Assembly (NCBI GenBank): GCA_017963125.1 | Contig: JAGCUA010000039.1 | Location: forward strand, 13,190-77,189 | Length of the DNA: 64,000 bases | Direction: 5' to 3' | Source of the DNA: a bacterium | GTDB lineage: Bacteria; UBP6; UBA1177 | Shown: one piece after another, positions 32,663 through 63,066 of the stretch | Numbering within the stretch: the first letter of the stretch is position 1 | Layout of the letters: every line of letters starts with the position of its first letter | Translations under genes and position numbers: made by a program | Notes under the pieces: model-generated | Seen by the model: only the letters and a program-made list of their open reading frames with translations | What the model was told of the DNA's origin: nothing | The model's database searches: none

Positions 32663-33850
32663 ATGAAGAAATTCACAGCAATCCTTGTGGCGATCGTTCT
32701 CGCCCTCTTCGTTGTAAGCTGCGGTGGTGGTAGCAACAACGACAACACCGACACGGACACTGACACGGACACCGACACGGACACCGACACAGACACCGAC
32801 ACAGACACCGACACGGACACTGACACGGACACCGACACGGACACCGACACGGACACTGACACAGACACCGACACGGACACCGACGAAGGCTGCACACTTG
32901 ATGCATCCATCCTTAATTGGGACAACGAGCCTTACTTCGCATTCAAAGGCATCGGCAAAATCAACTCGGAAGACAATGACAATCCTTCCATGGCAAACCT
33001 TATTACCGCAACGCTTAAAGGTGTTGAGGGTAAAGACCTTGACTATTCGAACCAGTACTCCTTCTTCCTTGAAACAAGCCTTCAGGGAACGGATCAGTCC
33101 GGTGCAACCGTTGAGATTCCTGCAGTAGCAGTTGAAGCTCTCGGTGACCCGAACATGAGCAGCGGCCGTTTCACGACTGTAGCTTTCGCAGCAGTTCCGA
33201 TCCAGTACATCGACGCTCTTAAAGAAGCTGGTGTTGACGTATTCCCGTCAGCTCCGATCACTCAGATCATTGACCTTGCGTTCACCTCTGACAATGCTTA
33301 TGCAAAACAGTGCATGATCGCTGTCAACAAATATGCTGACAACGCAGATTTCGGCCAGGAAATGCCGGCTGGACAGTTCCAGGTTTGCTACGACAAGAAC
33401 GAAACGTTCGCAGTAGGCGAAACCTTCAAACTTGCAATGGTTGCTGAACTTGCAATGGGTCAGGAAATCGTTGATATGTATACCGATGTTGACACCATCG
33501 ATGATCTTTGCACCTGCTTCGATATGAACTCGACAGCTGCTGACTCAAGAGTTGACTGCGCAACGATCGACGAATTCAATAATCCGACCGAACCGACCGA
33601 ACCGACCGAACCGACGACCGAGCCGACCACAGAGCCGACCACAGAGCCGACCACAGAGCCGACCACAGAGCCGACCACAGAGCCGACAACTGAACCGACC
33701 ACAGAGCCGACGACCGAGCCGACAACAGAGCCGACCACAGAGCCGACAACTGAACCGACCACAGAGCCGACCACTGAACCGACCACTGAACCGACCACAG
33801 AGCCGACAACTGAACCGACCACAGAGCCGACAACTGAGCCAACGGTTTAA
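32663..33850 (+). CDS. Surface lipoprotein with N-terminal (TD)23 and C-terminal TEPT tandem repeats
   Basis: Lipobox [15 protein letters not shown]. The central ~230-aa non-repetitive domain belongs to no recognised family. Confidence 0.7.
32747..32884 (+). repeat. 23 x 6-bp in-frame tandem repeat (ACN GAC) encoding (Thr-Asp)23
   Basis: Read directly from the sequence: 138 nt of ACC/ACG/ACA/ACT-GAC units. Confidence 0.95.
33584..33844 (+). repeat. In-frame tandem repeat: 3 x 9 bp (PTE) then about 20 x 12 bp (TEPT)
   Basis: Read directly from the sequence: CCGACCGAA x3, then ACC/ACA/ACT GAG/GAA CCG ACN units running to 2 codons before the stop. Confidence 0.95.
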
Positions 33851-33879
33851 TTGAGTCTATATTCGGTAGATTTTTTAGA

Positions 33880-33904
33880 GGGCGCTCCGGCGCCCTTTTT
33901 TTTT
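33880..33904 (+). terminator. Rho-independent terminator
   Basis: GGGCGC-TCCG-GCGCCC followed by T9. Confidence 0.8.
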
Positions 33905-46803: not shown

Positions 46804-47745
46804 TTACCATTCATCTTCGGAAGGACATTGAAGATCGATCCTTTCGGTACAGGTCCATTTCGAGCCGTATTCTTCGTCTTCTTCACAGAAACACCATTCG
46901 AATTCATCTCCGTTGGGGCAGTCCCAATACCTTATTTCAAGCAATCCGTCCGGATCGCATTCATCATAACAGCCAAGGTTGCCGTAAGGAATCCAGCCTT
47001 CTTCCGAACATATCAAAATACCGCATCCGTCAGGAATCAGATCTTCTTCTTTGTATATTCTCCCTTCACTGTCTTCGCACTGCGCGAGAATTTTGTCATC
47101 CTCGGGTTCGACAGTGGCAGGATCAACGATTTCCATGTCGATAATGACCCCTCTGCTGATTTCTCTGCCGTCTTCCGTTGTTTCGTGCCAGTAGAATGAA
47201 GAAATTCTTCCTCCTTGGTAGTTGATATCACTTGAAAAACTTGTCTTGCCGTCAGCACTTTGAGATGCCCACACAAGATCTCCCCACGAGTATTGGTAGA
47301 CAACAGTATTGAACAGGTCATTGTCGGTCGAAAAATAGATGTCAGGACATGGAGTCATGCAATCGGTATGTTCATTGTCGCCGTCGTAATAGATATTGCA
47401 TCCTGAAAGTTGCAGAATTTTGATTTTTTCAGGAATGATATCGGGGCATTTTACCCGCTTGTTATTGTCGAATTCATCTTTGTCGTAGATATCGTAACAC
47501 TTTTTTTTGTTGAAGACGAGCTCGTATTTCTGCAACTCGGCAACCATATTTGTGATATCCTCTTTGCTTGAATCCTGAAAACAGGTCGCGCCGGCGAGTT
47601 TTTTTATGCAGGTGTTGGCGGCATCCTTAGTGAATGAGTTTGTGCCGTAGGACTTTGTGACAGTGCACGAACCGTTGCCGCAGCCGGCAGCCGAAAAAGC
47701 GAGCAAAACCAAAAAAAGCGGTAGTAAAAACAACTTCTTGAACAT
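46804..47745 (-). CDS. Cys-rich acidic lipoprotein, hypothetical
   Basis: MFKKLFLLPLFLVLLAFSAAGCGNG signal plus lipobox from the ATG at 47745. More than 20 Cys. The upstream part of ORF 46804..47838 lacks coding character. Confidence 0.55.
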   Translation of the reverse strand: MFKKLFLLPLFLVLLAFSAAGCGNGSCTVTKSYGTNSFTKDAANTCIKKLAGATCFQDSSKEDITNMVAELQKYELVFNKKKCYDIYDKDEFDNNKRVKCPDIIPEKIKILQLSGCNIYYDGDNEHTDCMTPCPDIYFSTDNDLFNTVVYQYSWGDLVWASQSADGKTSFSSDINYQGGRISSFYWHETTEDGREISRGVIIDMEIVDPATVEPEDDKILAQCEDSEGRIYKEEDLIPDGCGILICSEEGWIPYGNLGCYDECDPDGLLEIRYWDCPNGDEFEWCFCEEDEEYGSKWTCTERIDLQCPSEDEW

Positions 47746-47904
47746 GTCTGCCTCCAAAAAACAAAAAATTAACAAAAAATAATACGCTTTTTTGTAGATT
47801 CTGCAAGAGGAAATTTTTCGTCTCAGATAACCTTGCAATTTAAAAATATATATGTATTTTCCCCGCGTTTAGGTTTTTTAGGAATTCGAATCCAGGAGAA
47901 AGCT

Positions 47905-50790: not shown

Positions 50791-52683
50791 ATGAAGAAAT
50801 ATACAACTTTAATTCTCGCTCTTTTACTGAGCTTCCTTCTTTTTGCTCAGGAAGAGCCCAAGCCTGAAGAGGCGGCAGTTCAGCAGGCTGGACAGGAACC
50901 TCAGGCTCAGGAAGAGCCTCAGGCGCCGGCGGCGAGAGCGCTGCCGATGCGCAATTTTGCGAAGCATCACAAAAAAGGCAGTGCCAACTCTGTTTTTACC
51001 GGAAGCAAGGAGAATGAATCCCTTGTAAAACTCGAGATCGAATACAAACTTCTCGACAACACTCCGCAGAAAAAGATCGAATACGCTGCTATCGTTTCGA
51101 ACAATGTCGTAGAGGGAACTCCGGAATACAAAACGATCGCTGAGCACCATGACGAAAGCACGATCGGCAACTACCTCATGATCACAGGTCTCGAGGCGGT
51201 CCTTCCGAACCAGAAGGAACAGAAGGATTCCAAACTTGCGGTCGTCGATCTTGATTCGTTCGATCCTGCAAAACAGGACTACAAAATCACGGCGATTTTC
51301 CCGAACGGTGAAAGAAAGGAATACAAACATTCAGACCTTCTTCTTGCCGACAACGGTGTCGCTTTCATCAACTTCAAGGAAGATCCGGAACTTTTCCCGG
51401 TTATGCTGAACGGCGAATCGGCGCGCGACGTAACACTCAATCGCACGCTCTACATCAAAAACTTCGGCAAAACCTATGAAGTTACCCCGCTTTTCATCAA
51501 TTTCTCGCTCCGTTCATCCGGAACGATGGAATATTACCTTCAGAAGAACAGAAGTTTCATTGCCCGTTTCTTCAACACCACGGCTGTCGCTCACATCACG
51601 ATAGGAAACCTGATAATGATGCTCGTTGCGTTCATTTTCATTTTCCTCGCGATCGCGAAAGACTATGAGCCGCTTCTTCTTCTCCCGATCGGTTTCGGTA
51701 TCCTCATCGGAAACATACCGACCGCGGCAGGTGTTCAGATCGGTGTCTACGATCCGGGCTCAGTTCTCAATTACCTCTACTTCGGAGTTCTGAAAGGTAT
51801 CTATCCTCCGCTTATCTTCATGGGTATCGGCGCAATGACCGACTTCTCCTACATGATCGCCAACCCGAAACTCATCCTTATCGGCGGCGGTGCTCAGGTA
51901 GGTATTTTCGCGGCATTCCTTATCGCTATCCTTCTTGGATTCAACCTTCAGGAAGCTGCTTCGATCGGTATCATCGGCGGTGCTGACGGCCCGACGGCTA
52001 TTTTCACGACAGGTCTCATGGCTCCGCACCTTTTGGGCGCAGTTGCAATCGCGGCTTACTCGTATATGGCTCTCGTTCCGGTTATCCAGCCCCCGATCGT
52101 AAAACTTCTCACGACCAAAAAGGAAAGACTCATCCGCATGAAACCGCCGCGCGTAGTTTCAAAGCGTGAAAGAATCGTATTCCCGATAGTTGCGTTCATC
52201 GTCTGCACATTCATCGCTCCCGGCGGACTTCCTCTTATCGGTATGCTCCTTCTCGGCAACATCATCAAGGAATCGGGCGTAACCGACAGACTTTCGAAGA
52301 CTGCAAGCAACGCACTTATCGATATCGTAACAGTTCTTATCGGTATCACGGTCGGTGCTTCAACAAGTGCTCAGACCTTCCTTACAGCCGCTTCGATCAA
52401 AATTTTCGCTCTCGGCGCACTTTCCTTCATGATCTCCACTGCCGGCGGCGTTCTGATCGCGAAACTCATCAACTGCTTCCTCAAACCGGGCAACAAACTC
52501 AACCCGATCATCGGATGCGCTGGTGTTTCCGCGGTTCCCGACAGTGCTCGTGTTGCACAGAATATCGGTAAACAGGCTGATCCGACGAACTACCTTCTTA
52601 TGCACGCAATGGCTCCGAACGTAGCAGGCGTTATCGGTTCCGCAATCGCTGCAGGTATATTGCTCGGCATCATCCCGCACTAA
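50791..52683 (+). CDS. mmdB: Na+-translocating decarboxylase beta subunit fused to a 245-aa N-terminal domain with signal/anchor sequence
   Basis: From residue ~246: NLIMMLVAFIFIFLAIAKDYEPLLLLPIGFGILIGNIP and GGADGPTAIF, typical of OadB/MmdB. Residues 1-245 are in the same frame with no stop. Confidence 0.85.
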   Translation: MKKYTTLILALLLSFLLFAQEEPKPEEAAVQQAGQEPQAQEEPQAPAARALPMRNFAKHHKKGSANSVFTGSKENESLVKLEIEYKLLDNTPQKKIEYAAIVSNNVVEGTPEYKTIAEHHDESTIGNYLMITGLEAVLPNQKEQKDSKLAVVDLDSFDPAKQDYKITAIFPNGERKEYKHSDLLLADNGVAFINFKEDPELFPVMLNGESARDVTLNRTLYIKNFGKTYEVTPLFINFSLRSSGTMEYYLQKNRSFIARFFNTTAVAHITIGNLIMMLVAFIFIFLAIAKDYEPLLLLPIGFGILIGNIPTAAGVQIGVYDPGSVLNYLYFGVLKGIYPPLIFMGIGAMTDFSYMIANPKLILIGGGAQVGIFAAFLIAILLGFNLQEAASIGIIGGADGPTAIFTTGLMAPHLLGAVAIAAYSYMALVPVIQPPIVKLLTTKKERLIRMKPPRVVSKRERIVFPIVAFIVCTFIAPGGLPLIGMLLLGNIIKESGVTDRLSKTASNALIDIVTVLIGITVGASTSAQTFLTAASIKIFALGALSFMISTAGGVLIAKLINCFLKPGNKLNPIIGCAGVSAVPDSARVAQNIGKQADPTNYLLMHAMAPNVAGVIGSAIAAGILLGIIPH

Positions 52684-52737
52684 GCGGTATTTGAGCTTTT
52701 TGTGATTTTACGGCTCCCTTCGGGGAGCCTTTTTTAT
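52681..52737 (+). repeat. Left copy of the 57-60-nt direct repeat (stop codon plus terminator of mmdB)
   Basis: TAAGCGGTATTTGAGCTTTTTGTGATTTTACGGCTCCCTTCGGGGAGCCTTTTTTAT. It matches 59710-59769 with 2 substitutions, 1 extra G and a T-run length difference. Confidence 0.9.
52712..52735 (+). terminator. Rho-independent terminator (UUCG tetraloop)
   Basis: GGCTCCC-TTCG-GGGAGCC followed by T6. Confidence 0.85.
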
Positions 52738-52814
52738 TTTTAAATAAATTTTTTCGCAGTTTTTTAATCTGTTAGTTTAATCAGTGTTCAAAAATATATA
52801 ATAAAATCAAATAG

Positions 52815-52842
52815 TTGACACTGTGAAAGCTATAAATATCAT
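52815..52842 (+). promoter_or_regulatory. Sigma70-type promoter candidate for hsdRMS
   Basis: TTGACA, 16-nt spacer, TATCAT. About 40 nt upstream of the ATG at 52882. Confidence 0.35.
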
Positions 52843-52881
52843 CATTGAGAAAATTTTGGGCGGTCAAATTAAGAGGATTTC

Positions 52882-55233
52882 ATGCTGTTAGACAAAAAAC
52901 AGATGTCGGAAGAAGATATCAAGCGCAACTTTATTACTCCGGCACTTCACATTAAAGGCTGGCATGACAAAATTACAATGGAAACAGCGATTACAGATGG
53001 TAGAATCCTTCTCGGCAGCAAAGGCAAGATGGCTGTTCGTGGTAAGCCTAAATTCGCTGACTATCTTCTTTACCTGAGTGCAAACAACCCGATTGCAGTA
53101 GTCGAAGCAAAGGATAATACTTACACTGTTTCTTTCGGTATGCAGCAGGCTATGGAATACGCCAAAATGCTTGATCTTCCGTTTGCATACAGTTCCAATG
53201 GAGACGGCTTTGTTGAGCATGATTTTCTTACCGGAGAGGAACGCGAATTCGGGCTTGATCAGTTTCCGACGGCTGATGAGTTGATTGCAAGATATAAATC
53301 CGAGCAGAACAACGGAACAGGACTTACAACGAATCAGGAAAAAATTATCGAGCAGCCCTATTACAGCAGTCAGAACACATATCCGCCGCGTTATTATCAG
53401 CGTATTGCCATCAATAGAACTTTGGACGCCATCGCAAAAGGTCAGGACCGGCTGCTTCTCGTTATGGCTACGGGAACAGGCAAAACTTATGTCGCGTTTC
53501 AAATAGTTTACCGCCTTTTGAAAAGCGGAATGAAAAGCAAAATTCTTTATCTTGCAGACCGCAATATTCTGGTGGATCAGTCAATTCAGCAGGATTTTGC
53601 CCCGCTGAACCAAGTTATTCATAAAATCAATGTCGCAAAAGACGACAAAACCACGATCACTTCTCACGAAGTCTATTTTTCATTGTATCAGCAGCTCGTT
53701 GGCGATGACGATCAGGAACACTTTTCGGAACTTTTTCAGCCGGATTTCTTTGATCTTGTTATTGTCGATGAGTGTCACAGGGGATCAGCGAAAGAAGAAA
53801 GCCGCTGGCGCAGAATTTTGGAGTATTTCAGTTCCGCCACACAGATCGGTATGACGGCCACGCCCAAAGAAACAAAGTATGTTTCGAACATCGATTATTT
53901 CGGCGAACCGGTTTACACTTACAGCCTGAATAAAGGAATCGACGACGGTTTTCTTGCGCCGTTTAAGGTGGTAAATATCAAAACAAACATCGGTGACGGC
54001 TGGCGGCCTGCGCCCGGGCAGCTTGATAAATTCGGGAATCCGATCGAAGACCGGGTATATAACAACAGAGATTATGATTACAACATTGTTATTGAAGACC
54101 GCATTCAGCAAGTGGCTTCGGAAATCACGAATTATCTGAAATTTACAGACCGCATGGCAAAAACCATAGTCTTCTGTGCTACTGAAGAAGCCGCAGAACG
54201 GATGCGTGTCGCATTGATCAATCTGAACTCAGATATGGTGAAAAAGAATCCGGATTACATTGTCAGGATCACCGGAAGCGATGATTACGGAAAAAGCAAA
54301 CTCGATTATTTTATTTCCGTTTCTTCGAAATATCCTGTTATAGCCACGACATCAAAACTGCTTTCCACTGGCGTTGACTGCAAAATGACAAAGTTGATCG
54401 TTTTGGATCAGATAATCGGTTCAATGACAGAGTTCAAGCAGATTATAGGCCGGGGAACACGTTTAAGAGAAAAAGACGGCAAACTCAGTTTTGCAATTAT
54501 GGATTTCCGCAATGTCACAAACTTATTTTCTGATCCTGATTGGGACGGTCCTATTGTAATTGATCCCGATTATCCGCCTGTAAAAAAGCCGGAACCCAAT
54601 GATCCTAGTCTTCCGCCGGTTGATTTTCCGGAACCTCCGGTTTCAGAGCCTAAAATCAAACCGATTGTTGATAAATCGGGCTGCCGTGTTGAGATAATTC
54701 AAAAAACTGTATCTGTTTATGATCCGCACGGTATTTTGCTCAGGCAGGAAAGTATCACCGACTACACAAAAAAGAACATTGTCGGAGAGTATGCGTCTCT
54801 TGATAATTTCATCCGCGAATGGCGTAAAGATCCTGAAAAAAGAACAATTATAAACATGCTTTCAGAACGCGGCATCAATATTGAACAGATGAAGGCCGAA
54901 AACGGCATGTCTGATGTCGATGATTTCGATTTTATATGCCATGTGGCTTATGACAAGAAGCCTCTTACACGCAGAGAAAGGGCTAACAATGTGAAAAAAC
55001 GCGATTTTCTCAGCAGATACAACGGTGTTGCCCGCGAAATTCTTGAAGCACTGCTTGACAAGTATATGAATGACGGCATTTCCGATATCTGCAACACGGA
55101 AATTTTGAAACTCGAGCCTTTCTTAAAATACGGTAAACCCTCCAGAATTTCTGAATTTTTCGGCGGTAGAGAAGGGTATCTGGAAGCGGTCAAGAAACTG
55201 GAAGAAGAAATCTATATGGATGAGGTGATTTAA
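52882..55233 (+). CDS. hsdR: Type I restriction enzyme R subunit (type IB / EcoEI-EcoAI-like)
   Basis: N-terminal nuclease core ADYLLY...AVVEAKD. Helicase motifs LLVMATGTGKT, VIVDECHRG, MTATP and QIIGRGTR. The C-terminal DNFIREW...LEPF...G tail resembles the EcoEI R C-terminal domain. Confidence 0.9.
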   Translation: MLLDKKQMSEEDIKRNFITPALHIKGWHDKITMETAITDGRILLGSKGKMAVRGKPKFADYLLYLSANNPIAVVEAKDNTYTVSFGMQQAMEYAKMLDLPFAYSSNGDGFVEHDFLTGEEREFGLDQFPTADELIARYKSEQNNGTGLTTNQEKIIEQPYYSSQNTYPPRYYQRIAINRTLDAIAKGQDRLLLVMATGTGKTYVAFQIVYRLLKSGMKSKILYLADRNILVDQSIQQDFAPLNQVIHKINVAKDDKTTITSHEVYFSLYQQLVGDDDQEHFSELFQPDFFDLVIVDECHRGSAKEESRWRRILEYFSSATQIGMTATPKETKYVSNIDYFGEPVYTYSLNKGIDDGFLAPFKVVNIKTNIGDGWRPAPGQLDKFGNPIEDRVYNNRDYDYNIVIEDRIQQVASEITNYLKFTDRMAKTIVFCATEEAAERMRVALINLNSDMVKKNPDYIVRITGSDDYGKSKLDYFISVSSKYPVIATTSKLLSTGVDCKMTKLIVLDQIIGSMTEFKQIIGRGTRLREKDGKLSFAIMDFRNVTNLFSDPDWDGPIVIDPDYPPVKKPEPNDPSLPPVDFPEPPVSEPKIKPIVDKSGCRVEIIQKTVSVYDPHGILLRQESITDYTKKNIVGEYASLDNFIREWRKDPEKRTIINMLSERGINIEQMKAENGMSDVDDFDFICHVAYDKKPLTRRERANNVKKRDFLSRYNGVAREILEALLDKYMNDGISDICNTEILKLEPFLKYGKPSRISEFFGGREGYLEAVKKLEEEIYMDEVI

Positions 55234-55235
55234 AT

Positions 55236-56714
55236 ATGGGCAATTTATCGGGTTTTGTAAAGCGTCTCCGCGATATTATGAGAAACGATGCCGGTATCAA
55301 CGGTGATGCACAGCGTATCGAACAGATTGCATGGATGCTTTTTCTCAAGGTATATGACTCCAAGGAATCAGACTGGAAATTTGACGATCAGAATTATGTT
55401 TCGATTATTCCTGAAGAATGCCGCTGGGTGAACTGGGCGCATGATGACAAGTCCGGCAGGGCTATGACTGGTGAAAGACTTCTTGATTTTGTCAACAATA
55501 CGCTTTTTCCGATTTTGAAAAAACTGCCGGTCGATGCTTCCACGCCGATAAAACAGGCTATCGTGCAGACGACTTTCGCCGATGCGAACAACTACATGAA
55601 AGACGGTGTTCTGCTTCGCCAGATTATAAATATCATCGACGAGCTTGATCTTTCAGATTACGAGGAAAGTTACGCTTTCGGCGAAATATACGAATCGATT
55701 TTGAAAGAGCTGCAAAGTGCGGGTTCAGCCGGTGAATTCTATACGCCGCGTGCTGTTACAGACTTTATGGCTCAGATGATAAAACCGCAGATCGGTGAAA
55801 AAATGGCCGACTTCGCATGCGGAACAGGCGGCTTTCTTACAAGCTGGCTGAAGGAGCTTGAAAAAAAGGTGAAAACCACTGCCGACCGTGCCGAGTTCGG
55901 TACTTCAGTTTACGGTATCGAGAAAAAGCAGTTCCCGTATATGCTCTGCATTACGAATATGCTTCTGCATGATCTCGATGTTCCGCAGGTGTTCCACGAC
56001 AACAGTCTTCTTTATGATGTGCTTGACTACACGGAACATGACCAGTTTGATGTTGTGCTGATGAATCCTCCTTATGGCGGCAGTGAAAAGGCCGAGGTCA
56101 AAAACCATTTTCCGGCTGATCTTGCAAGTTCCGAAACTGCTGATCTCTTTCTTTCTGTCATCATGTACCGCTTGAAAAAAAACGGACGTTGCGCTGTAAT
56201 CCTGCCGGACGGATTTCTTTTCGGTACAGACAACGCAAAAATCAACATCAAGAAAAAACTTCTTTCGGAGTTTAATCTTCACACCGTAATCCGTATGCCG
56301 CAGAGTGTGTTTTCGCCTTATACATCGATCACAACGAACATTCTCTTCTTTGAACGCGCCGGACGCACAACGGAGACTTGGTTTTATCGTCTCGATATGC
56401 CGGAAGGGTACAAGCATTTTTCAAAGACAAAGCCGATGAAACTGGAGCATTTCGCTCCTGCGGTGGAATGGTGGAACAACCGTGTCGCAATCAATGAAGA
56501 CGGCTTTGACAAAGCACGAAAATTCACTGTGAAAGAACTTTCTGAAGATTTGGGATACAACCTTGATCAATGCGGCTATCCGCACGCTGAAGAAGAGATC
56601 CTTGCACCTATGGATTTGATTCAACGCTATCAGGAAGAGCGTGCCTCGCTGAACGCGGAAATTGACCGTGTTCTTGCTGAAATCACCGACAAGCTCGGAG
56701 GAACTGCGCAATGA
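55236..56714 (+). CDS. hsdM: Type I R-M N6-adenine DNA methyltransferase subunit
   Basis: HsdM N-terminal domain (IEQIAWMLFLK). GEFYTPR. DFACGTGGFL (motif I). VLMNPPYGG (motif IV). Confidence 0.95.
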   Translation: MGNLSGFVKRLRDIMRNDAGINGDAQRIEQIAWMLFLKVYDSKESDWKFDDQNYVSIIPEECRWVNWAHDDKSGRAMTGERLLDFVNNTLFPILKKLPVDASTPIKQAIVQTTFADANNYMKDGVLLRQIINIIDELDLSDYEESYAFGEIYESILKELQSAGSAGEFYTPRAVTDFMAQMIKPQIGEKMADFACGTGGFLTSWLKELEKKVKTTADRAEFGTSVYGIEKKQFPYMLCITNMLLHDLDVPQVFHDNSLLYDVLDYTEHDQFDVVLMNPPYGGSEKAEVKNHFPADLASSETADLFLSVIMYRLKKNGRCAVILPDGFLFGTDNAKINIKKKLLSEFNLHTVIRMPQSVFSPYTSITTNILFFERAGRTTETWFYRLDMPEGYKHFSKTKPMKLEHFAPAVEWWNNRVAINEDGFDKARKFTVKELSEDLGYNLDQCGYPHAEEEILAPMDLIQRYQEERASLNAEIDRVLAEITDKLGGTAQ

Positions 56715-58159
56715 CTCCGCAGGAACTGAAAAACAGCATCCTTCAGCTTGCAATTCAAGGCAAATTGGTGCCGCAAATACCCGAAGAAGGAACTGCGGAA
56801 GAACTTTATCAGCAGATCCAGGCTGAAAAACAGAAACTCATCAAAGAAGGAATAATTAGGCAGGATACAGACATCACAGAACCAGATGAGTATCCATTTG
56901 ATATCCCCGACAGTTGGGTTATGGCAAGGATTACAGATTGTGGCGCTTTTATTTCTGGATTCACACCAAAGCCAAATGAGTTGGCAGAAGCAGGAAGAAT
57001 TCCATATTTCAAGGTATCTGATATGAACACTGAAGGAAACGAGGTTTATCTCAGTATCACAACTGCTTTTCTTAAAGATGATAGCCCCAAAAAGTACTTT
57101 CTTAAGAACACGATAGTATATCCAAAAAACGGTGGGGCTGTCTTTACGAACAAAAAGCGAATTCTTGTACAAGATTCCATAGTAGATTTGAACACAGGCG
57201 GATACTCAGTTATCGGGCCAGTCAATCTCATGTATTTCTATTATTTTTTTCTCCTTATCGACTTTAGGCAATGTTATAAAGGGACCGCACTTCCCACGAT
57301 TGATATGGACAGGCTTAAGCGAAAGTGGATTCCTCTTCCGCCTCTTGCCGAGCAAAAGAGGATTGTCGCCAAGATTGAAGAGCTGCTGCCGCTGATCGAC
57401 CGCTATGAGCAGGCTTGGAGCCGTCTTGAAGAATTTAATAAGCGTTTTCCTGAAGATATGAAAAAATCCATCCTGCAATATGCGATTCAGGGGAAACTTG
57501 TGGAGCAACGCCCGGAGGAAGGCACCGGCGAAGAATTGTATCAGCAGATTCAGGCAGAAAAGCAGAAACTGATCAAAGAGGGAAAGATCAAGAAAGAAAA
57601 ACCTCTGCCGGAGATTACAGAAGAGGAAAAGCCGTTTGAAATTCCGGAAAGTTGGAAGTGGGTACGGTTTTCTGCTGTTATTGATGTGCGTGACGGAACG
57701 CACGATACACCGAAATATGTTTTAGATGGAATCCCTCTTGTAACCAGTAAAAATCTAGTCGATGGCAGAATTGATTTTGAAACGGCAAAGAACATTTCGG
57801 TTGAAGATGCAACAGTTATAAATATACGTTCTCGTGTTGATGACGGAGATATTCTGTTCGCCATGATTGGAACTATTGGCAATCCCGTTATAGTTAAGAA
57901 AGATCGGGAGTTCAGCATTAAGAATATGGCTCTATTCAAACAAATTGATGATTCTTTACTTGACATGAGATATGTGTTGTTTTTTTTGCAGAGAGCACAA
58001 ACTGATATGAGGGCAATTGCCAATGCCAGCGTACAGTCGTTTGTTTCATTGACCGTCTTGCGGAATTATTTGTTTCCTCTCCCGCCTCTTGCTGAGCAGA
58101 AAAGGATTGTCGCGAAGTTGGAAGAGTTGCTGGAATTAAGTGAAAAATTAAAAAAATGA
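56711..58159 (+). CDS. hsdS: Type I R-M specificity subunit with two target-recognition domains
   Basis: Duplicated conserved regions LPPLAEQKRIVAK(I/L)EELL and ILQ(L/Y)AIQGKLV...EELYQQIQAEKQKLIKEG flank two divergent TRDs. 4-nt overlap with hsdM. Confidence 0.9.
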   Translation: MTPQELKNSILQLAIQGKLVPQIPEEGTAEELYQQIQAEKQKLIKEGIIRQDTDITEPDEYPFDIPDSWVMARITDCGAFISGFTPKPNELAEAGRIPYFKVSDMNTEGNEVYLSITTAFLKDDSPKKYFLKNTIVYPKNGGAVFTNKKRILVQDSIVDLNTGGYSVIGPVNLMYFYYFFLLIDFRQCYKGTALPTIDMDRLKRKWIPLPPLAEQKRIVAKIEELLPLIDRYEQAWSRLEEFNKRFPEDMKKSILQYAIQGKLVEQRPEEGTGEELYQQIQAEKQKLIKEGKIKKEKPLPEITEEEKPFEIPESWKWVRFSAVIDVRDGTHDTPKYVLDGIPLVTSKNLVDGRIDFETAKNISVEDATVINIRSRVDDGDILFAMIGTIGNPVIVKKDREFSIKNMALFKQIDDSLLDMRYVLFFLQRAQTDMRAIANASVQSFVSLTVLRNYLFPLPPLAEQKRIVAKLEELLELSEKLKK

Positions 58160-58180
58160 AAGAAGATTTTACAATAATGT

Positions 58181-58208
58181 TTGACAAAAATTTATTTTGC
58201 GATAATAT
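58181..58208 (+). promoter_or_regulatory. Sigma70-type promoter candidate for the ImmA/cyclase-like pair
   Basis: TTGACA (58181-58186), 16-nt spacer, TAATAT (58203-58208). GGAGGTGA RBS at 58237-58244. Confidence 0.45.
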
Positions 58209-58247
58209 ATTGTGCTTCGTTGGTAAAAATATTTGTGGAGGTGATTC

Positions 58248-58778
58248 ATGAGCTCTTCAAAACGCTATCAAGCAATTGAAGCTTTGGCTGAATCTATTAG
58301 AAAACAGCTCTATCCTTCCCACCCTGTAGATATGCAGGAAGTCGTTAAAAGTCTCAAAGGAGAATTGCAGGAAGAGTCTTTTGAAGATTCAACAATATCT
58401 GGCAAAATTGAGAAGGTTGGTGATGCTTTTAAAATTTCCTATAACAAAGAACATTCTCCACAGCGTTCTGGATTTACAATCGCTCACGAAATAGGACATT
58501 TATTTCTCCACATGGGATATATTATAGACCCTGAAAAATGGGATAGTATAAACGACTACTGTGACTCTCCTAAATATCGGCAAGGATATTCTGTGGAAGA
58601 ATATGAGGCAAATCATTTCGCAGGTGCATTCTTGATGCCTAAAGATGATTATGAGAACTTCCTTAGAGAGAATGGCCACAACAACAAAATTGATATCAGC
58701 TTGATAGCTGAACATTTTAATGTTTCTTTTGATGCTGCATTGACAAGAGGTAAGTGGCTTGGCATCTTCGACTGGTAA
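58248..58778 (+). CDS. ImmA/IrrE-family (COG2856) zinc metallopeptidase
   Basis: RSGFTIAHEIGHLFLH HExxH motif. Downstream EEYEANHFAGAFLMP motif at the spacing typical of the family. 176 aa. No HTH partner gene is present. Confidence 0.85.
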   Translation: MSSSKRYQAIEALAESIRKQLYPSHPVDMQEVVKSLKGELQEESFEDSTISGKIEKVGDAFKISYNKEHSPQRSGFTIAHEIGHLFLHMGYIIDPEKWDSINDYCDSPKYRQGYSVEEYEANHFAGAFLMPKDDYENFLRENGHNNKIDISLIAEHFNVSFDAALTRGKWLGIFDW

Positions 58779-59712
58779 TCGCTGGACAGATATTAACTTA
58801 AATGTATCTGATGTTGAACTTGCAAAATCTTATAATGAAATCGTCACTAAAAACATATATGTCTTTTTTTCATTTGATCTGGTCGGATCAACTAAATTCA
58901 AGACTGAAAAAACAAATTGGCCCTATGTTATTTCTTATTTTTACGACACTGTTTATAAGAAATTAAAATATTTAATCCCCCAGATCAAGGTATGGAAATA
59001 TTTAGGAGACGAAATTCTTTTATATGTTTCGATTTGCGATTTCGATTCTCCATCTGTAATTTATATGATCCCTGACACGGTTTATTCTATTCAACTGAAA
59101 GTGGCAGAATCAATCCAAAAAATTCCGGAAGCTAAAAAACTTGATGTAAAATCAACCATTTGGATGGCAGGGGTTCAGGCAGTAGAGTCAGAAAAATTCA
59201 ATCTTTCAAATATCCCGCAAACCTATCAAAATTACAAAAATCTAAAAGTAAAATTAAATGTGGAGGATCAAGATCAGGTGGATTTCCTTGGTCCGGATAT
59301 GGATATAGGCTTCCGTATTGCTAAGTTCGCATTTCATCACAAAATTGTATTAAGTGCAGATTTTGCGTATTTCTTACATTTTACAAAGCCCGAAAACTGT
59401 GACATAGATGAAAAACTGCAAATTGTTTCATTCGAGATTTTAAAAGGAGTATGGAACGAACAGTATTATCCAATTATATGGTACTATCCTGATTGGGAAA
59501 CTAAACCGTATGGCTTCTTTTATGCAGATCATAAGAAAAATGAGATTGCAGAGAGAGTTTTATCCGAAAGAGTTGAAACTATTGATGAATTGGAAAATGT
59601 CTATAAGGAATTGGAGAAAATTGACGAAATAAATGCATTTGTCAATGAATGCAATCGAGTAAATTATTCAAAAGAAAGAGACTTTTTGCTTCATCTCGAA
59701 ACTAGAAAATAA
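58759..59712 (+). CDS. Class III nucleotidyl-cyclase-like protein (317 aa) with uncharacterised C-terminal ~100 aa
   Basis: VFFSFDLVGSTKF (Asp40) and KYLGDEILLY (Asp84, 44 residues later) match the two metal-binding Asp motifs FxDIxGFT and IGDxxM. STIWMAGVQAV and DFLGPDMDIGFRIAKFA..HKIVLSADF match the hGxHxG and GxxVNxAxR...IxxS segments. TTG start behind AAGAGG, overlapping the ImmA gene by 20 nt. Confidence 0.6.
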   Translation: MASSTGNRWTDINLNVSDVELAKSYNEIVTKNIYVFFSFDLVGSTKFKTEKTNWPYVISYFYDTVYKKLKYLIPQIKVWKYLGDEILLYVSICDFDSPSVIYMIPDTVYSIQLKVAESIQKIPEAKKLDVKSTIWMAGVQAVESEKFNLSNIPQTYQNYKNLKVKLNVEDQDQVDFLGPDMDIGFRIAKFAFHHKIVLSADFAYFLHFTKPENCDIDEKLQIVSFEILKGVWNEQYYPIIWYYPDWETKPYGFFYADHKKNEIAERVLSERVETIDELENVYKELEKIDEINAFVNECNRVNYSKERDFLLHLETRK

Positions 59713-59769
59713 GCGATATTTAAGCTTTTTGTGATTTTACGGGCTCCCTTCGGGGAGCCTTTTTTTTAT
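59710..59769 (+). repeat. Right copy of the direct repeat (stop codon of the cyclase-like gene plus terminator)
   Basis: TAAGCGATATTTAAGCTTTTTGTGATTTTACGGGCTCCCTTCGGGGAGCCTTTTTTTTAT. Confidence 0.9.
59742..59767 (+). terminator. Rho-independent terminator (duplicate of 52712)
   Basis: GGCTCCC-TTCG-GGGAGCC followed by T8. Confidence 0.85.
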
Positions 59770-59927
59770 AGATTTTTTTGTGGAAACATTTCAAAACGTT
59801 TTTGCGATCATGTAGGTTTCTTCTTACAATTCAGCTACCTATATTTTTTACTCTTATTGACTTTCCGTGGCGTAAAATGATAATTCCCCGCTTTTCAGCC
59901 GTTACCTAAACGGCAGGGAGATTTTCG

Positions 59928-61280
59928 ATGAGACGTGAAATCGACATGCTTAACGGCGGTTTCGCCGCAAAAATACTTCAGTTTGCGATCCCGCTTGCTC
60001 TGACGGGGATCCTCCAGCAGTTTTTCAATGCGGCGGACGTCATGGTCGTAGGGCGTTTTGCAAGCAAGTTTGCGATGGCTGCTGTCGGCTGCAACACTCC
60101 TGTTATCGGCATTGTCGTCAACCTTTTTGTCGGGATCTCGACCGGCGCGACTGTCGTTATCGCCAAGTGTATCGGGCGCGGCGATAGCTCCGGAGTGAAG
60201 AAGGCTGTCCACACCGCGGTCTTTTTGAGTCTTGTCTGCGGAAGCGTGATGGCGCTTGTTGCGCTTGCTGTTTCAAGCCGCATCATGTCGCTTCTTTCGG
60301 TGCCGGAAGAGGTCCTTCCGATGGCGCTTTCTTATTTTCGGATCTACATTTCGGGACTTCCGGCGATACTTCTTTACAACTTCGAATCTGCGATTTTCCG
60401 CTCGAAAGGAGATACGAACACGCCTCTTTTCTGCCTTATTGCTGCAGGAATCGTGAATGTTCTGCTCAACCTCTTTTTTGTTCTCGTCCTCAAAATGGGA
60501 GCGGAAGGAGTCGCGATAGCCACTGTCATCTCCAACATCCTGAGTTCGGGAGCTATGTTCATAGTTCTTCTGCGCTCCAGAAGCGATGTCGGGATCGAGT
60601 TCCACCTCATCAGAGCTGACCACGCTTCGCTTTTGGAAATCCTGCGCATCGGCGTTCCGGCAGGTGTCCAGAGCATGGTTTTCGCCTTGTCGAACATCAT
60701 AATCCAGTCTGCGATAAATTCTCTCGGGCCCGATGTCATGGCTGCTTCGGCTGCCGCTTTCAATACTGAAATTTTCGCATACTTCATCGTGAACGCTTTC
60801 GGCCAGGCATGCACAGCTTTCATCGGGCAGAATTACGGCGCGAAGAAGTTCGACCGCTGCCGGAAAGTCACAATTCATGCCTTCTGGATGGACTGCGCTT
60901 TCACCGCCGCTGTAGCTCTTCCGATAATCATTTTTTCGAGGGAACTCCTTGCTCTTTTCAACGGCGATCCAGCTGTCATTGAATACGGAAGAACTAGAAT
61001 TCTCTACATCACATCTTTCCAGTTCCTGAACCTTACGACCGAAATTTTCTCAGGAAGTCTGCGTGGTTACGGCAATTCTCTCGCTCCGGCTCTGATCGCG
61101 CTGCTCGGCATCTGCGTGACGCGCGTCATCTGGGTCTTCACCGTTTTTCCGATGCATAGCGACTACGCCACGCTTCTTGCGTGCTACCCGATAAGCTGGT
61201 TCATCACGACATCGATACTTACAGGCTACTACTTCTGGTTCATGCGGGTCGCGCTGAAAAGGAAAGTTGCCGGAATATAG
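59928..61280 (+). CDS. MATE-family multidrug/efflux transporter
   Basis: 450 aa, 12 TM. FAIPLALTGILQQFFNAADVMVVGRF N-terminal MATE signature. Confidence 0.9.
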   Translation: MRREIDMLNGGFAAKILQFAIPLALTGILQQFFNAADVMVVGRFASKFAMAAVGCNTPVIGIVVNLFVGISTGATVVIAKCIGRGDSSGVKKAVHTAVFLSLVCGSVMALVALAVSSRIMSLLSVPEEVLPMALSYFRIYISGLPAILLYNFESAIFRSKGDTNTPLFCLIAAGIVNVLLNLFFVLVLKMGAEGVAIATVISNILSSGAMFIVLLRSRSDVGIEFHLIRADHASLLEILRIGVPAGVQSMVFALSNIIIQSAINSLGPDVMAASAAAFNTEIFAYFIVNAFGQACTAFIGQNYGAKKFDRCRKVTIHAFWMDCAFTAAVALPIIIFSRELLALFNGDPAVIEYGRTRILYITSFQFLNLTTEIFSGSLRGYGNSLAPALIALLGICVTRVIWVFTVFPMHSDYATLLACYPISWFITTSILTGYYFWFMRVALKRKVAGI

Positions 61281-61318: not shown

Positions 61319-62428
61319 TTATTCGTTAACGCATGAAGAATCTTTCCATGTGAAATTTTCTTTGCATTTGAAACGGCATTCGGAAGCTATTTTGGTTTCA
61401 CATTGATAGTTGACGCCGTTGAAAGAGAATTCTCCGAGACATTCGTAGCATTTGCCGGTTTCCGCGCCATATTCTAAACCGTTTTCGCACATAGCAGGTT
61501 CTTCACATTTAAGAGGTGCTGAAACAGGAAGATCGTTTTTATACATAACAGTATGGGTTTCATCATACAGCAGCGTCACATTGTTTTCTTCTTTGCTGTA
61601 ACCTCTGATTGTTATCGATGAATTGCAGCAGCATGGGACAAGTTCACCGCTGTTTTCTATAGCCTCACTTTCGGTTTTGTAACATTTGTCCTTGTCTGCC
61701 AGAGCATATTTATTCCCGCCGTCACTAGTAGTTGAAAAACCGTTTTTATATGTCCAGGTTCCGCAGCCGTCTATCTGACAAAAATCATTTTGCAAGCTTG
61801 TTCCGGTCGGGCAGGAAGGAGGCTGAATAGTGGCTTTCGCTTCCGGATAAGAGGTTTCTTCCTTGATAACAGGAACTTCGTCACTGTATTCACCTTTTTC
61901 AGACGGTGTGTATTCACCGTTTTCCAAGGTTTGGGTTATGAGAGAAGCGCCGTTCCACTCTGCATTTTCAGGAAGTCCGGTACACGAAACAGTTCTCTCC
62001 TGCGGAAGAGTATCTCCGTCGTCGCCAGTATCGGAAGTATCGCTCGTGTCAGAGGTATCACTTGTATCTGAGGTGTCGCTCGTGTCTGAAGTGTCGCTCG
62101 TGTCTGAAGTGTCGCTCGTATCTGAAGTGTCGCTCGTATCGGAAGTGTCGCTCGTGTCAGATGTGTCGCTCGTATCGGAAGTGTCGCTCGTGTCGGAAGT
62201 GTCGCTCGTATCGGAAGTGTCACTTGTATCGGAAGTATCGCTTGTGTCTGAAGTATCGCTCGTATCGGAGGTGTCACTCGTATCTGAAGTGTCCGGCGTA
62301 TCGGAATCTTCGTCAGGAATTTGATCCTGATCTTCGTTTGCCACGGGTGAAATTCGTTTTACAGCATCATCGCCGCAACCGACCGCAACAAGAAAAACGA
62401 TAAAGAAAATCAAAAAAGACTTTTTCAT
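61319..62428 (-). CDS. Surface lipoprotein with (SDT)31 tandem repeat and Cys-rich C-terminal region
   Basis: Lipobox FLVAVGCGDD. 93-aa SDT array. More than 20 Cys in the C-terminal 230 aa. Confidence 0.7.
   Translation of the reverse strand: MKKSFLIFFIVFLVAVGCGDDAVKRISPVANEDQDQIPDEDSDTPDTSDTSDTSDTSDTSDTSDTSDTSDTSDTSDTSDTSDTSDTSDTSDTSDTSDTSDTSDTSDTSDTSDTSDTSDTSDTSDTSDTSDTSDTGDDGDTLPQERTVSCTGLPENAEWNGASLITQTLENGEYTPSEKGEYSDEVPVIKEETSYPEAKATIQPPSCPTGTSLQNDFCQIDGCGTWTYKNGFSTTSDGGNKYALADKDKCYKTESEAIENSGELVPCCCNSSITIRGYSKEENNVTLLYDETHTVMYKNDLPVSAPLKCEEPAMCENGLEYGAETGKCYECLGEFSFNGVNYQCETKIASECRFKCKENFTWKDSSCVNE
62027..62305 (-). repeat. 31 x 9-bp in-frame tandem repeat encoding Ser-Asp-Thr (one Pro-Asp-Thr unit)
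   Basis: Read directly from the sequence: GTATC(G/A/T)GA(A/G/T) type units on the plus strand. 279 nt. Confidence 0.95.
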
Positions 62429-62730: not shown

Positions 62731-63066
62731 CTCGCTCTTTTCAACGGCGATCCCGCTGTCATTGAATACGGCAGGACGAGGATCCTCTACATCACTTCTT
62801 TCCAAATACTCAACCTTACGGTCGATATTCTTTCAGGAAGTCTTCGCGGCTACGGCAATTCTCTTGCTCCCGCTCTGATTGCGCTTTTAGGCATCTGTGT
62901 GACGCGCGTCATCTGGGTTTTCACCGTCTTTCCTCTCCACAGCGACTATTCTACGCTTCTTGCATGCTATCCGATAAGCTGGAGCATCACAGCAACGATA
63001 ATGCTCTGCTACTATTTCTGGTTCATGCGGGTCGCGCTGAAAAGGAAAGTTACCTTACACAGATGA
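62731..63066 (+). pseudogene. Orphan 3' remnant (111 codons plus stop) of a second, diverged MATE transporter gene
   Basis: Collinear with 60948-61280. Translates to LALFNGDPAVIEYGRTRILYITSFQ...FWFMRVALKRKV. It has no start and no 5' part. Differences from the intact copy are mostly at third codon positions. Confidence 0.75.

What the first reader, a model, noticed from the sequence alone, without database searches (positions are those of the whole stretch)
52681..59769. About 7-kb AT-rich island inserted at the mmdB terminator, bracketed by 57-60-nt direct repeats, with no integrase
The sequence from the mmdB stop codon through its UUCG-loop terminator and T-run (52681-52737) recurs at 59710-59769. 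The two copies differ by 2 substitutions, one extra G and T6 versus T8. Their starts are 7029 nt apart.

Everything between the copies looks visibly lower in GC than the mmd operon on the left and the MATE gene on the right. That content is hsdR, hsdM, hsdS, the ImmA-like gene and the cyclase-like gene.

This is the footprint expected of site-specific or homology-driven insertion that duplicated the target. No integrase, transposase or tRNA is present inside or next to it.
Basis: seen in the sequence. Interest (0 to 1): 0.7.

Follow-up and report, generated by a model that had tools for sequence, protein, structure and literature searches.

The report
Integrase-less restriction island, duplicated mmdB terminator
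A 7-kb foreign block of phage-defence genes sits right after the mmdB gene of an uncultured gut or rumen bacterium, bracketed by two copies of that gene's terminator and carrying no integrase, which is a further example of a known but mechanistically unexplained way that restriction systems enter genomes.

Summary
The unit made of the mmdB stop codon and its terminator (52681-52737) recurs at 59710-59769, 7029 nt away. The copies differ by 2 substitutions, one extra G and T6 versus T8.

Between the copies lie an EcoAI-type Type I restriction-modification system, an M78 peptidase gene and a gene with a class III cyclase fold. GC is 0.41 against 0.47 for the rest of the window, and this is the lowest-GC 7 kb in the window. 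There is no integrase, transposase, tRNA or terminal inverted repeat.

Four strains of the same species (95-98% identical flanks) carry mmdB, one terminator, then the MATE gene. They also lack a 134-nt MATE promoter segment, so they are not pristine pre-insertion sites. The repeat was not found elsewhere in the sequence I could search.

Sister species carry other restriction cargo at the same place, again closed by a second copy of the mmdB end. In one of them the copies differ only at synonymous sites.

This fits "insertion with long target duplication" of restriction systems (Furuta et al. 2010). Most likely the cassette carries its own terminator copy and is gained and lost by homologous recombination. 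It is a new member of a known kind, of moderate interest.

The parts
50791..52683 (+). mmdB: beta subunit of a Na+-translocating methylmalonyl-CoA/oxaloacetate decarboxylase, last gene of the mmd operon. The insertion target lies at its stop codon.
   Evidence: Pfam OAD_beta, E 3e-148, residues 273-627.
52681..52737 (+). Left direct repeat: mmdB TAA stop, a 28-nt spacer, the terminator hairpin (52712-52729), T6, then AT.
   Evidence: It is 58/58 identical to the single copy in the empty-site strains.
52738..52881 (+). Left end of the cassette, carrying its own promoter (TTGACA-16-TATCAT, 52815-52842) upstream of hsdR.
   Evidence: Promoter scan, 11 of 12 matches. Homology to the hsdR upstream region of L099/L188 starts at 52738.
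52882..55233 (+). hsdR, Type I restriction subunit of the EcoAI/FtnUII family (Type IB).
   Evidence: NCBIfam NF046051, 1084 bits against a cut-off of 550. Pfam ResIII plus EcoEI_R_C. PADLOC REase_I.
55236..56714 (+). hsdM, Type I N6-adenine DNA methyltransferase.
   Evidence: Pfam N6_Mtase, E 3e-62, plus HsdM_N. PADLOC MTase_I, E 2e-171.
56711..58159 (+). hsdS, specificity subunit with two target-recognition domains.
   Evidence: Pfam Methylase_S, two matched stretches. PADLOC Specificity_I, E 1e-140.
58151..59776 (+). A discrete module: promoter (58181-58208), M78 peptidase gene, cyclase-like gene and terminator copy. It is shared as one unit with another island (L200).
   Evidence: BLAST of the window against L200: 87.8% identity over exactly 58151-59776. 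The ORF-end/terminator junction is shared.
58248..58778 (+). M78 (ImmA/IrrE-type) metallopeptidase gene, CapP-like.
   Evidence: Pfam Peptidase_M78, E 6e-17. PADLOC capP, E 7e-27.
58759..59712 (+). ORF317, an uncharacterised protein with a class III nucleotidyl-cyclase fold. It overlaps the M78 gene by 20 nt.
   Evidence: No Pfam, NCBIfam or PADLOC hit. AlphaFold2 model pLDDT 86.7. The top Foldseek PDB matches are adenylyl/guanylyl cyclases, E 2e-9, target TM-score 0.76. D40, D84 and R186 are invariant (D40 nearly so) in 40 homologues.
59710..59769 (+). Right direct repeat: TAA stop of ORF317, spacer, terminator hairpin (59741-59760), T8, then AT.
59770..59784 (+). A 15-nt flank (AGATTTTTTTGTGGA) homologous to the sequence after the single terminator in empty-site strains. 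The right copy therefore aligns to the target over about 75 nt.
   Evidence: BLAST of 59710-59784 against L004 860-932: 89% over 75 nt.
59785..59918 (+). A 134-nt segment present only in occupied strains. It contains the MATE promoter (TTGACT-16-GATAAT, 59857-59884). Its promoter-bearing 3' part (from about 59844) is homologous to the native MATE upstream region of a sister species.
59928..61280 (+). MATE-family efflux transporter gene, the right-hand neighbour of the insertion site.
   Evidence: Pfam MatE, E 9e-54. The protein is 100% identical in the empty-site strain L004.

Best explanation
What it is (shown). The region is an integrase-less, horizontally acquired defence cassette. It holds a Type IB hsdRMS system with its own promoter, followed by a module of an M78 peptidase gene and a cyclase-like gene. 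It lies immediately after the intrinsic terminator of mmdB and ends in a second, slightly different copy of the mmdB stop-codon/terminator unit. Presence and absence are polymorphic within the species.

How it works (inferred). The right-hand terminator copy belongs to the cassette. It ends the cassette's transcription. It also gives the cassette about 60 nt of homology to the conserved mmdB terminator found in every member of this genus.

A cassette that leaves a donor genome with one terminator copy can enter a recipient by RecA-type recombination with the resident terminator. This could be a single Campbell-type crossover of a circularised fragment. It could also be a double crossover that uses mmdB as the long left arm. 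Either route produces mmdB-terminator-cargo-terminator. The same repeats allow loss, amplification and exchange of cargo.

Once resident, the restriction-modification genes favour their own retention. The mmdB downstream junction has thus become a genus-wide landing site for restriction cargo.
For: 1. Insertion polymorphism. Four strains have a single terminator, and their flanks are 95-98% identical to the window.

2. Foreign composition. Relatives of the cargo also sit at an unrelated locus in another organism: L097/L098, between mazEF and thiG, 87% nt identity over hsdR-hsdM and 79% over M78-ORF317.

3. No recombinase, tRNA or terminal inverted repeats.

4. Recurrence at the same target with other cargo.
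- L099-L103 and L188: a DUF4143 ATPase gene plus hsdRMS lie between terminator repeats that are 89% identical. The right repeat again starts at the stop codon of the last gene.
- L085: GmrSD, a 279-aa ORF and a SocA/Panacea gene lie between repeats of about 220 nt, made of the last 164 nt of mmdB plus the terminator.

5. The two copies are different functional alleles, not a fresh fill-in duplicate.
- In L085 all 6 differences in the 164 coding nt are synonymous third-position changes. My rough estimate is P of about 0.004 if they had accumulated after a duplication.
- The L085 stems differ by a compensatory pair, GGCTTCC/GGAAGCC versus GGCTCCC/GGGAGCC.

6. The terminator copy travels with the cargo. 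In L200-L203 the M78/ORF309/TAA-terminator unit (87.8% identical over window 58151-59776) sits behind an unrelated Type I system, and no mmdB was seen in the roughly 9.5 kb fetched upstream of that system's second M78 gene.

7. The same architecture occurs next door with non-defence cargo. The MATE 3' end (60948-61277) and a relic at 62731-63060 are 83% identical. Differences by codon position are 15/5/36 and the reading frame is still open.

8. hsd alleles are shuffled among lineages. L188 shares the L099 arrangement, yet its hsdR-hsdM is 96% identical to the window's and only 91% identical to L099's.

9. The pattern matches the published class "insertion with long target duplication" (PMC2853133).
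Against: - No circular or excised form was observed.
- About 57-60 nt of homology is short for RecA-mediated exchange, and natural competence of this uncultured organism is unknown.
- In the window itself the left copy carries all four empty-site allele states and the right copy none. A single crossover inside the repeat should give hybrid copies. This needs a crossover at the extreme edge, a crossover within mmdB, or a later conversion event.
- With about 4% divergence between the lineages, the four differences between the window's two copies are also compatible with plain divergence after a duplication (my calculation).
- The mosaic analysis of mmdB was not decisive.
- The empty sites also lack 134 nt, so they do not show the exact pre-insertion state.
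- hsd at mmdB in several species could be old and vertically inherited, with repeated loss.
- How a cassette first acquired a terminator copy remains unexplained.
Confidence: 0.55

Rival explanations
1. Site-specific integration by a recombinase encoded elsewhere. The island would be an att-flanked remnant or passenger, like the cis-mobilizable elements (CIMEs) of streptococci or elements that use the host Xer recombinases. The terminator would contain the att core, and the element-borne copy of the mmdB end would be its attP.
For: The direct repeats lie at the 3' end of a protein gene. The displaced copy is a diverged allele, which is the classic signature of integrative elements. The same site is used repeatedly by different cargo. 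A hairpin with conserved flanks could serve as a recognition site.
Against: No integrase, resolvase or transposase was seen in or beside any of about a dozen different mmdB-downstream contexts. The left edge of the repeat varies (the stop codon in two islands, -164 nt in L085), and a similar repeat of about 330 nt occurs at MATE. That is easier to explain by homology than by one att site. No viral contig carries the unit.
Confidence: 0.17
2. A true target duplication made at insertion. Staggered double-strand breakage 57-60 nt apart, possibly by the restriction enzyme itself, would be followed by fill-in. This is the property suggested in the literature as common to all restriction-modification types.
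For: It is the idea put forward for this class of events (PMC2853133). The cargo at this site is restriction genes each time. In the window the number of differences between the copies is compatible with later divergence.
Against: In L085 the copies differ only synonymously and by a compensatory stem change. They therefore evolved as functional alleles in separate lineages. The terminator copy accompanies the M78-cyclase module in another context. The MATE relic shows the same allele-type divergence with cargo that is not a restriction system.
Confidence: 0.1
3. The occupied state is ancestral for the species or genus, and the 'empty' alleles arose by deletion. The repeats would then be old and say nothing about how the island arrived.
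For: hsdRMS lies next to mmdB in at least two sister lineages as well as in the window's species. hsd divergence (88-96% nt) is similar to or greater than core-gene divergence. The empty alleles have lost the native MATE promoter segment, so a deletion did occur in that lineage.
Against: The empty-site terminator carries all four left-copy states, followed by a flank of the right-copy type with 3 differences. It is therefore not a simple recombinant of the window's two copies. The cargo is compositionally foreign and occurs at other loci elsewhere. Other genus members have unrelated genes directly after a single terminator.
Confidence: 0.12
4. A chance repeat, or a member of a dispersed terminator family. 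The island would be ordinary variable DNA between two independent terminators.
For: GC stems with a UUCG loop are common terminator designs.
Against: Similarity covers the 28-nt spacer before the stem as well as the stem itself. The pattern gave 0 matches in 100 shuffles. No other copies were found in 1.65 Mb of loci. The orthologous unit is conserved after mmdB across the genus.
Confidence: 0.03

Closest known systems
Insertion of restriction-modification systems with long target duplication (Nobusato et al. 2000, Gene 259:99; Furuta, Abe and Kobayashi 2010, NAR 38:2428, PMC2853133)
   Same: The insert holds R and M genes, is under 20 kb, and is flanked by direct repeats longer than 30 bp that match a single copy in an empty-site genome. 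It has no mobility genes. The repeat spans the stop codon of the target gene, so that gene stays intact. The closest published case is a Haemophilus influenzae Type I system with extra genes and a 46-bp repeat overlapping the 3' end of a gene.
   Different: The host is an uncultured organism that is probably a spirochaete, and the target is an intrinsic terminator. The same target is used by three different restriction cargoes in sister species. In the related cases the two copies are diverged functional alleles, which points to homology-driven entry and away from a fresh duplication. The empty sites differ by a further 134-nt indel.
Immigration control region (hsd locus) of E. coli and relatives: cassette-like replacement of restriction genes between conserved anchor genes (Sibley and Raleigh 2004; reviewed in PMC12707154)
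   Same: It is a fixed chromosomal locus where alternative restriction systems, or nothing, are found in different strains. There are no mobility genes, and exchange is presumed to occur by homologous recombination.
   Different: Here only the left anchor (mmdB) is conserved across species. The right neighbour varies: MATE, yidC, a radical-SAM gene, or a DUF8436/FAD gene. The cargo is bracketed by a duplicated target, which the E. coli region is not reported to have.
Cis-mobilizable elements (CIMEs) and other integrase-less islands flanked by att sites at the 3' end of a gene, for example at fda in Streptococcus thermophilus (from my own knowledge, not checked in a paper here)
   Same: Direct repeats lie at the 3' end of a housekeeping gene, the island has no integrase of its own, and it can carry restriction-modification genes.
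   Different: No cognate integrase-bearing element was found at this site in any related genome examined. The repeat lengths and left edges vary.
CapP/CapH-type regulators (M78 peptidase) and Pycsar class III cyclases of anti-phage systems
   Same: The M78 protein scores as capP-like. ORF317 has the class III cyclase fold, and its matches include a uridylate cyclase.
   Different: There is no HTH partner and no recognisable effector. There is no PADLOC, Pfam or NCBIfam hit for ORF317. The pair is an uncharacterised module, also found behind another Type I system and in the lysogeny region of Clostridioides difficile phages.

Membership tests
[quoted passage not shown] 2010) | Both R and M gene homologues lie inside the inserted DNA. 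| tested here: met
   hsdR, hsdM and hsdS were identified by Pfam, PADLOC and NCBIfam.
[quoted passage not shown] 2010) | The inserted sequence is shorter than 20 kb. | tested here: met
   The repeat starts are 7029 nt apart.
[quoted passage not shown] 2010) | Direct repeats longer than 30 bp align with a single copy at an empty site in a related genome. | tested here: met
   The repeats are 57 and 60 nt. A single copy is present in L004, L086, L087 and L104. Caveat: the empty sites also lack 134 nt next to the right copy.
[quoted passage not shown] 2010) | No other mobile-element genes in or beside the insert. | tested here: met
   No integrase, transposase or resolvase family appears among the genes within about 10 kb on either side. 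No tRNA. No terminal inverted repeats.
[quoted passage not shown] 2010) | The repeat sequence is not a multi-copy genomic repeat. | tested here: inconclusive
   There are only two copies in the 64-kb window. No other copies were found in 1.65 Mb of fetched loci apart from mmdB ends and island ends. The complete genome was not available.
Integrase-mediated genomic island or prophage | A tyrosine or serine recombinase gene in or next to the island. | tested here: not met
   The five island genes fill the space between the repeats, and none is a recombinase. The neighbours are listed.
Integrase-mediated genomic island or prophage | Integration into a tRNA or tmRNA gene. | tested here: not met
   ARAGORN found 0 genes in the window. 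The target is a protein-gene terminator.
CIME-like att-flanked element mobilised in trans | A cognate integrase-bearing element uses the same site in related genomes. | tested here: not met
   None was found in about a dozen distinct mmdB-downstream contexts, and no viral contig carries the unit. Sampling is limited.
Transposon-borne RM unit | Terminal inverted repeats, a short target-site duplication and a transposase. | tested here: not met
   The best inverted pair at the ends is 37 nt, only 70% complementary and AT-rich. There is no transposase, and the repeat is 57-60 nt long.
Type I restriction-modification system, family IB (EcoAI-like) | HsdR scores above the curated cut-off of the EcoAI/FtnUII model, with HsdM and a two-domain HsdS adjacent. 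| tested here: met
   NF046051 scores 1084 bits against a cut-off of 550. N6_Mtase plus HsdM_N, and Methylase_S in two stretches. Enzyme activity cannot be tested here.
Class III nucleotidyl cyclase (ORF317) | Cyclase catalytic fold with the two metal-binding aspartates. | tested here: inconclusive
   The fold match is strong, and D40, D84 and R186 are conserved in 40 homologues. However, there was no Pfam family match at all, and so none to Guanylate_cyc, and the residue equivalences were not checked by superposition.

The most novel reading that the evidence does not exclude
The mmdB stop-codon/terminator unit acts as a portable address tag. Defence cassettes in this genus, which is probably a spirochaete genus, carry it at their 3' end. 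With host recombination alone, the tag directs them to the conserved mmdB terminator of any genus member. This would be a recombinase-free cassette exchange addressed by a terminator, functionally like an integron without an integrase. It would also give the first mechanistic account of insertion with long target duplication.
Probability: 0.3. Interest if true: 0.6.

Novelty: new member of a known kind. Interest (0 to 1): 0.42.

Why it matters
How restriction-modification and other defence genes move when they carry no integrase or transposase has been open since "insertion with long target duplication" was described in 2000.

This locus offers a natural series for that question. One conserved target has empty alleles and three different restriction cargoes in sister species. 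The repeat copies can be told apart as alleles. The synonymous-only divergence in L085, and a terminator copy that travels with a gene module, favour homology carried by the cassette over a staggered-break duplication. That idea can be tested directly on metagenomic reads or in a culturable relative.

Apart from this, the island is an ordinary Type I restriction island. Its M78-cyclase pair is an uncharacterised candidate defence or regulatory module that deserves a separate look.

Tried and rejected
- A fuzzy-regex scan of all loci for the unit timed out. I replaced it with blastn-short.
Only L005 and L104-L107 were close relatives.
- I looked in mmdB for a recombination tract that came in with the island. 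The window and L099 are 97-98% identical over roughly the last 435 nt, against 89-95% further upstream. However, the island-free L107 partly shares that haplotype, so I did not use this as evidence.
- A dispersed terminator family is rejected as far as I could sample.
- A transposon structure is rejected.
- A plasmid or phage origin of the island is not supported. The best plasmid matches are at most 68% identical over parts of hsdR and hsdM only, and phage matches are confined to distant ORF317 homologues.
- A profile search of ORF317 against PDB sequences hit only the NUDIX domain that is fused in the longer homologues. The fold search was needed to see the cyclase fold.
- I tried to fetch more sequence upstream of the L200 island to see whether mmdB lies further left.
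- Literature searches for an M78 plus cyclase module linked to Type I systems, and for recent work on integrase-less defence islands with direct repeats, found nothing specific.
- No direct repeats bracket the related cassette in L097.

Full report
**1. The observation**

The sequence from the mmdB stop codon through a GC-rich hairpin with a UUCG loop and a T-run (52681-52737) is repeated at 59710-59769. The repeat finder reports the pair with a start-to-start spacing of 7029 nt (family D9).

The two copies differ by two G>A substitutions, one extra G before the stem, and T6 versus T8. Each copy begins with a TAA stop codon: that of mmdB (50791-52683) and that of the last island gene, ORF317 (58759-59712).

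A gapped pattern covering 41-42 nt of the unit matches twice in the window and never in 100 shuffles. Both copies are the two top-listed + strand terminator-like sites in the scan of 52400-60100. Both fold as expected for intrinsic terminators.

**2. Content and composition**

The five genes between the copies are:
- hsdR (52882-55233). It matches the EcoAI/FtnUII family at 1084 bits against a cut-off of 550, which places the system in Type IB.
- hsdM (55236-56714).
- hsdS (56711-58159).
- an M78/ImmA-type peptidase gene (58248-58778), which scores as capP-like in PADLOC.
- ORF317 (58759-59712), which has no Pfam, NCBIfam or PADLOC match.

An AlphaFold2 model built on 40 homologues (pLDDT 86.7) matches class III adenylyl/guanylyl cyclase domains (Foldseek E 2e-9, target TM-score 0.76). 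The matches include a uridylate cyclase. D40, D84 and R186 are conserved in the family.

The cassette has its own promoters: 52815-52842 before hsdR and 58181-58208 before the M78 gene.

GC of 52739-59709 is 0.409, against 0.471 for the rest of the window. The lowest-GC 7-kb window of the whole 64 kb starts at 52751. Third-position GC falls from 0.58-0.62 in mmdA, mmdB and MATE to 0.29-0.50 in the island genes.

There is no tRNA in the window. No recombinase family appears among the genes within about 10 kb on either side. There are no convincing terminal inverted repeats.

**3. Empty sites**

I looked up the exact MATE and MmdB proteins, and their close variants, in public assemblies. This found the island at the same place, with identical junctions, on at least ten contigs from different samples.

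It also found four contigs of the same species in which mmdB is followed by one terminator and then, 76 nt after the stop codon, by the MATE start codon. These are L004, L086, L087 and L104. Their flanks are 95-98% identical to the window. The single terminator is 58/58 identical to the left copy.

There is one complication. The right copy together with the next 15 nt aligns to the empty site over about 75 nt at 89%. The following 134 nt (59785-59918) are absent from all the empty sites and present in all the occupied ones. This segment holds the MATE promoter. Its promoter-bearing 3' part (from about 59844) is homologous to the native MATE upstream region of a sister species in which MATE lies at another locus (L204).

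The empty alleles have therefore also lost, or never had, the MATE promoter segment. They are not a simple recombinant of the window's two copies. At least two events separate the two allele types.

**4. The repeat is the native mmdB terminator and is not dispersed**

Other members of the genus have a recognisably orthologous unit after mmdB. Their MmdB proteins are 87-93% identical to the window's. They are L005, L106, L107 and L190-L199. The unit has the form TAAGCGGTATTT..., a stem, then a T-run, with compensatory stem changes. It is followed by quite different genes.

In 1.65 Mb of fetched loci the unit occurs only at mmdB stop codons and at the right ends of islands. No viral contig carries it. 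The complete genome could not be searched.

**5. The same target with other cargo**

- L099-L103 and L188. A DUF4143 ATPase gene and an hsdRMS system related to the window's (88-96% nt over hsdR-hsdM) lie between two terminator copies that are 89% identical. The right copy again starts at the stop codon of the last gene, here hsdS, and yidC follows. That junction could derive from the window-type island by a deletion between two AAAAT microhomologies that removed M78-ORF317. This is my inference.
- L085. A GmrSD Type IV restriction gene, a 279-aa ORF and a SocA/Panacea gene lie between repeats of about 220 nt. The repeats consist of the last 164 nt of the mmdB coding sequence plus the terminator.
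- A fourth species (MmdB variant P0004). The content between mmdB and a DUF8436/FAD gene differs between strains whose MmdB proteins are identical.

The junction downstream of mmdB is thus a variable site across the genus.

**6. What the repeats tell about mechanism**

In L085 the six differences in the 164 coding nt are all synonymous third-position changes. The two stems differ by a compensatory pair. If the copies had started identical and then diverged, most changes should have fallen in the unconstrained relic, at any codon position. I estimate roughly P = 0.004 for six out of six synonymous changes. The copies are therefore two functional alleles from different lineages. One of them came in with the island.

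The terminator copy also travels with cargo. In L200-L203 the M78/ORF309/TAA-terminator unit is 87.8% identical to window 58151-59776 and has the same ORF-end/terminator junction. There it sits behind an unrelated Type I system, and no mmdB was seen in the roughly 9.5 kb fetched upstream of that system's second M78 gene.

The same architecture exists just downstream with non-defence cargo. The last 330 nt of MATE (60948-61277) recur at 62731-63060 at 83% identity. Differences by codon position are 15/5/36 and the frame is still open. The two copies flank the 369-aa repeat-protein gene.

hsd alleles are shuffled among lineages. L188 has the L099 arrangement but a window-like hsdR-hsdM.

These facts favour entry and exchange by homologous recombination through a copy of the target carried by the cassette. 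They argue against a duplication made by staggered breakage.

For the window itself the evidence is weaker.
- The four differences between its copies are compatible with ordinary divergence.
- The clean segregation of allele states between the left and right copies is not what a crossover inside the repeat predicts.

**7. Comparison with what is known**

The structure meets the published criteria for "insertion with long target duplication" of restriction-modification systems (PMC2853133). The criteria are:
- R and M genes in the insert;
- an insert under 20 kb;
- repeats over 30 bp that match an empty site;
- no other mobile-element genes.

That paper also notes that the repeats often span a stop codon, which leaves the target gene intact. 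It describes an H. influenzae Type I case with a 46-bp repeat at the 3' end of a gene. It states that the mechanism is unknown and proposes double-strand breakage as the common factor.

The E. coli immigration control region is a looser analogue. I tested an integrase-mediated island, a CIME-like element and a transposon, and found their defining features absent. The caveat is limited sampling.

No close relative of the island is on a sequenced plasmid or phage.

**8. Verdict**

The finding is a new member of a known kind. It has some added value because the locus provides a comparative series that bears on an unresolved mechanism.

The organism is an uncultured bacterium from rumen or gut metagenomes, and it is probably a spirochaete. 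I infer this because the nearest relatives with a named taxon are Spirochaetales (an MmdB relative) and Treponema (an ORF317 homologue).

Noticed in passing
window 60948-61277 and 62731-63060, with the gene at 61319-62428 (- strand) between them: The last 330 nt of the MATE gene recur 1783 nt downstream at 83% identity. Differences are biased to third codon positions (15/5/36) and the reading frame is still open. The two copies bracket a 369-aa gene with no Pfam match that contains 18-nt tandem repeats. This is a second "gene end, cargo, diverged relic of the same gene end" structure, and it is also present in the empty-site strains.
   Followed up: partly
window 58248-59712; L200 9467-10930; L097 14765-16235; phage phiCD27 (L208 2878-4961): The M78 peptidase gene and the overlapping gene with a class III cyclase fold form a conserved two-gene module. 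It occurs behind two unrelated Type I restriction families. It also occurs in the lysogeny region of Clostridioides difficile phages, between the endolysin and the integrase. In Bacillus, Leptospira and phage homologues the cyclase-like protein is fused to a NUDIX domain. No described defence system matched. It is a candidate new defence or regulatory module.
   Followed up: partly
L085 11730-16045: A sister species has a different island at the same mmdB end: GmrSD Type IV restriction, a 279-aa unknown ORF and a SocA/Panacea-domain gene. It is bracketed by repeats of about 220 nt that include 164 nt of mmdB coding sequence differing only at synonymous sites.
   Followed up: yes
L099 8419-8466 and 8492-8539; L200 1715-1749 and 11001-11035: A motif of about 35-48 nt (TCTATTGAAAAAA..GCC..AA..GGC.AAAAATTT, with a small internal palindrome) occurs twice upstream of the DUF4143 ATPase gene next to mmdB in L099. 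Related copies flank the whole L200 island, 9286 nt apart. It is not present in the window. Its function is unknown; it could be an operator or a recombination site.
   Followed up: partly
window 46823-47768 (gene 46804-47838, - strand) versus L086/L087/L104 5977-6924: In the empty-site strains this gene is present in the opposite orientation and is only 75% identical, while the surrounding DNA is 95-96% identical. This is either an inverted segment or an allelic replacement.
   Followed up: no
window 50791-51600: MmdB is 630 aa long. The OAD_beta domain covers only residues 273-627. The roughly 270-residue N-terminal extension starts with a signal-like hydrophobic stretch followed by a Q/E/P-rich region. 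It varies in length (595-644 aa in total) among close relatives.
   Followed up: no
window 32721-32908, 33557-33891 and 61985-62342: There are long arrays of 12-nt tandem repeats (ACACCGACACGG-type, at two sites) and of 18-nt tandem repeats. They are presumably coding repeats in surface proteins. The 18-nt array varies in length between strains (ORFs of 351-379 aa).
   Followed up: no
window 52746-52782 and 58133-58169: A 37-nt AT-rich inverted pair, 70% complementary, brackets hsdRMS alone, from the left cassette end to the hsdS stop. It is probably chance, but restriction-modification units flanked by imperfect inverted repeats have been described.
   Followed up: no
L107 3508-6018 compared with L002 18080-20590: In one sister species the ketoacyl-synthase, short-chain dehydrogenase and ApeP-like genes directly follow mmdB. 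In the window's species they lie about 16 kb beyond the mmdB stop (about 9 kb without the island). The whole block from MATE to the DUF4143 gene therefore also looks like variable DNA at this junction. The MATE gene itself sits at two other loci in other sister species (L184, L204).
   Followed up: partly
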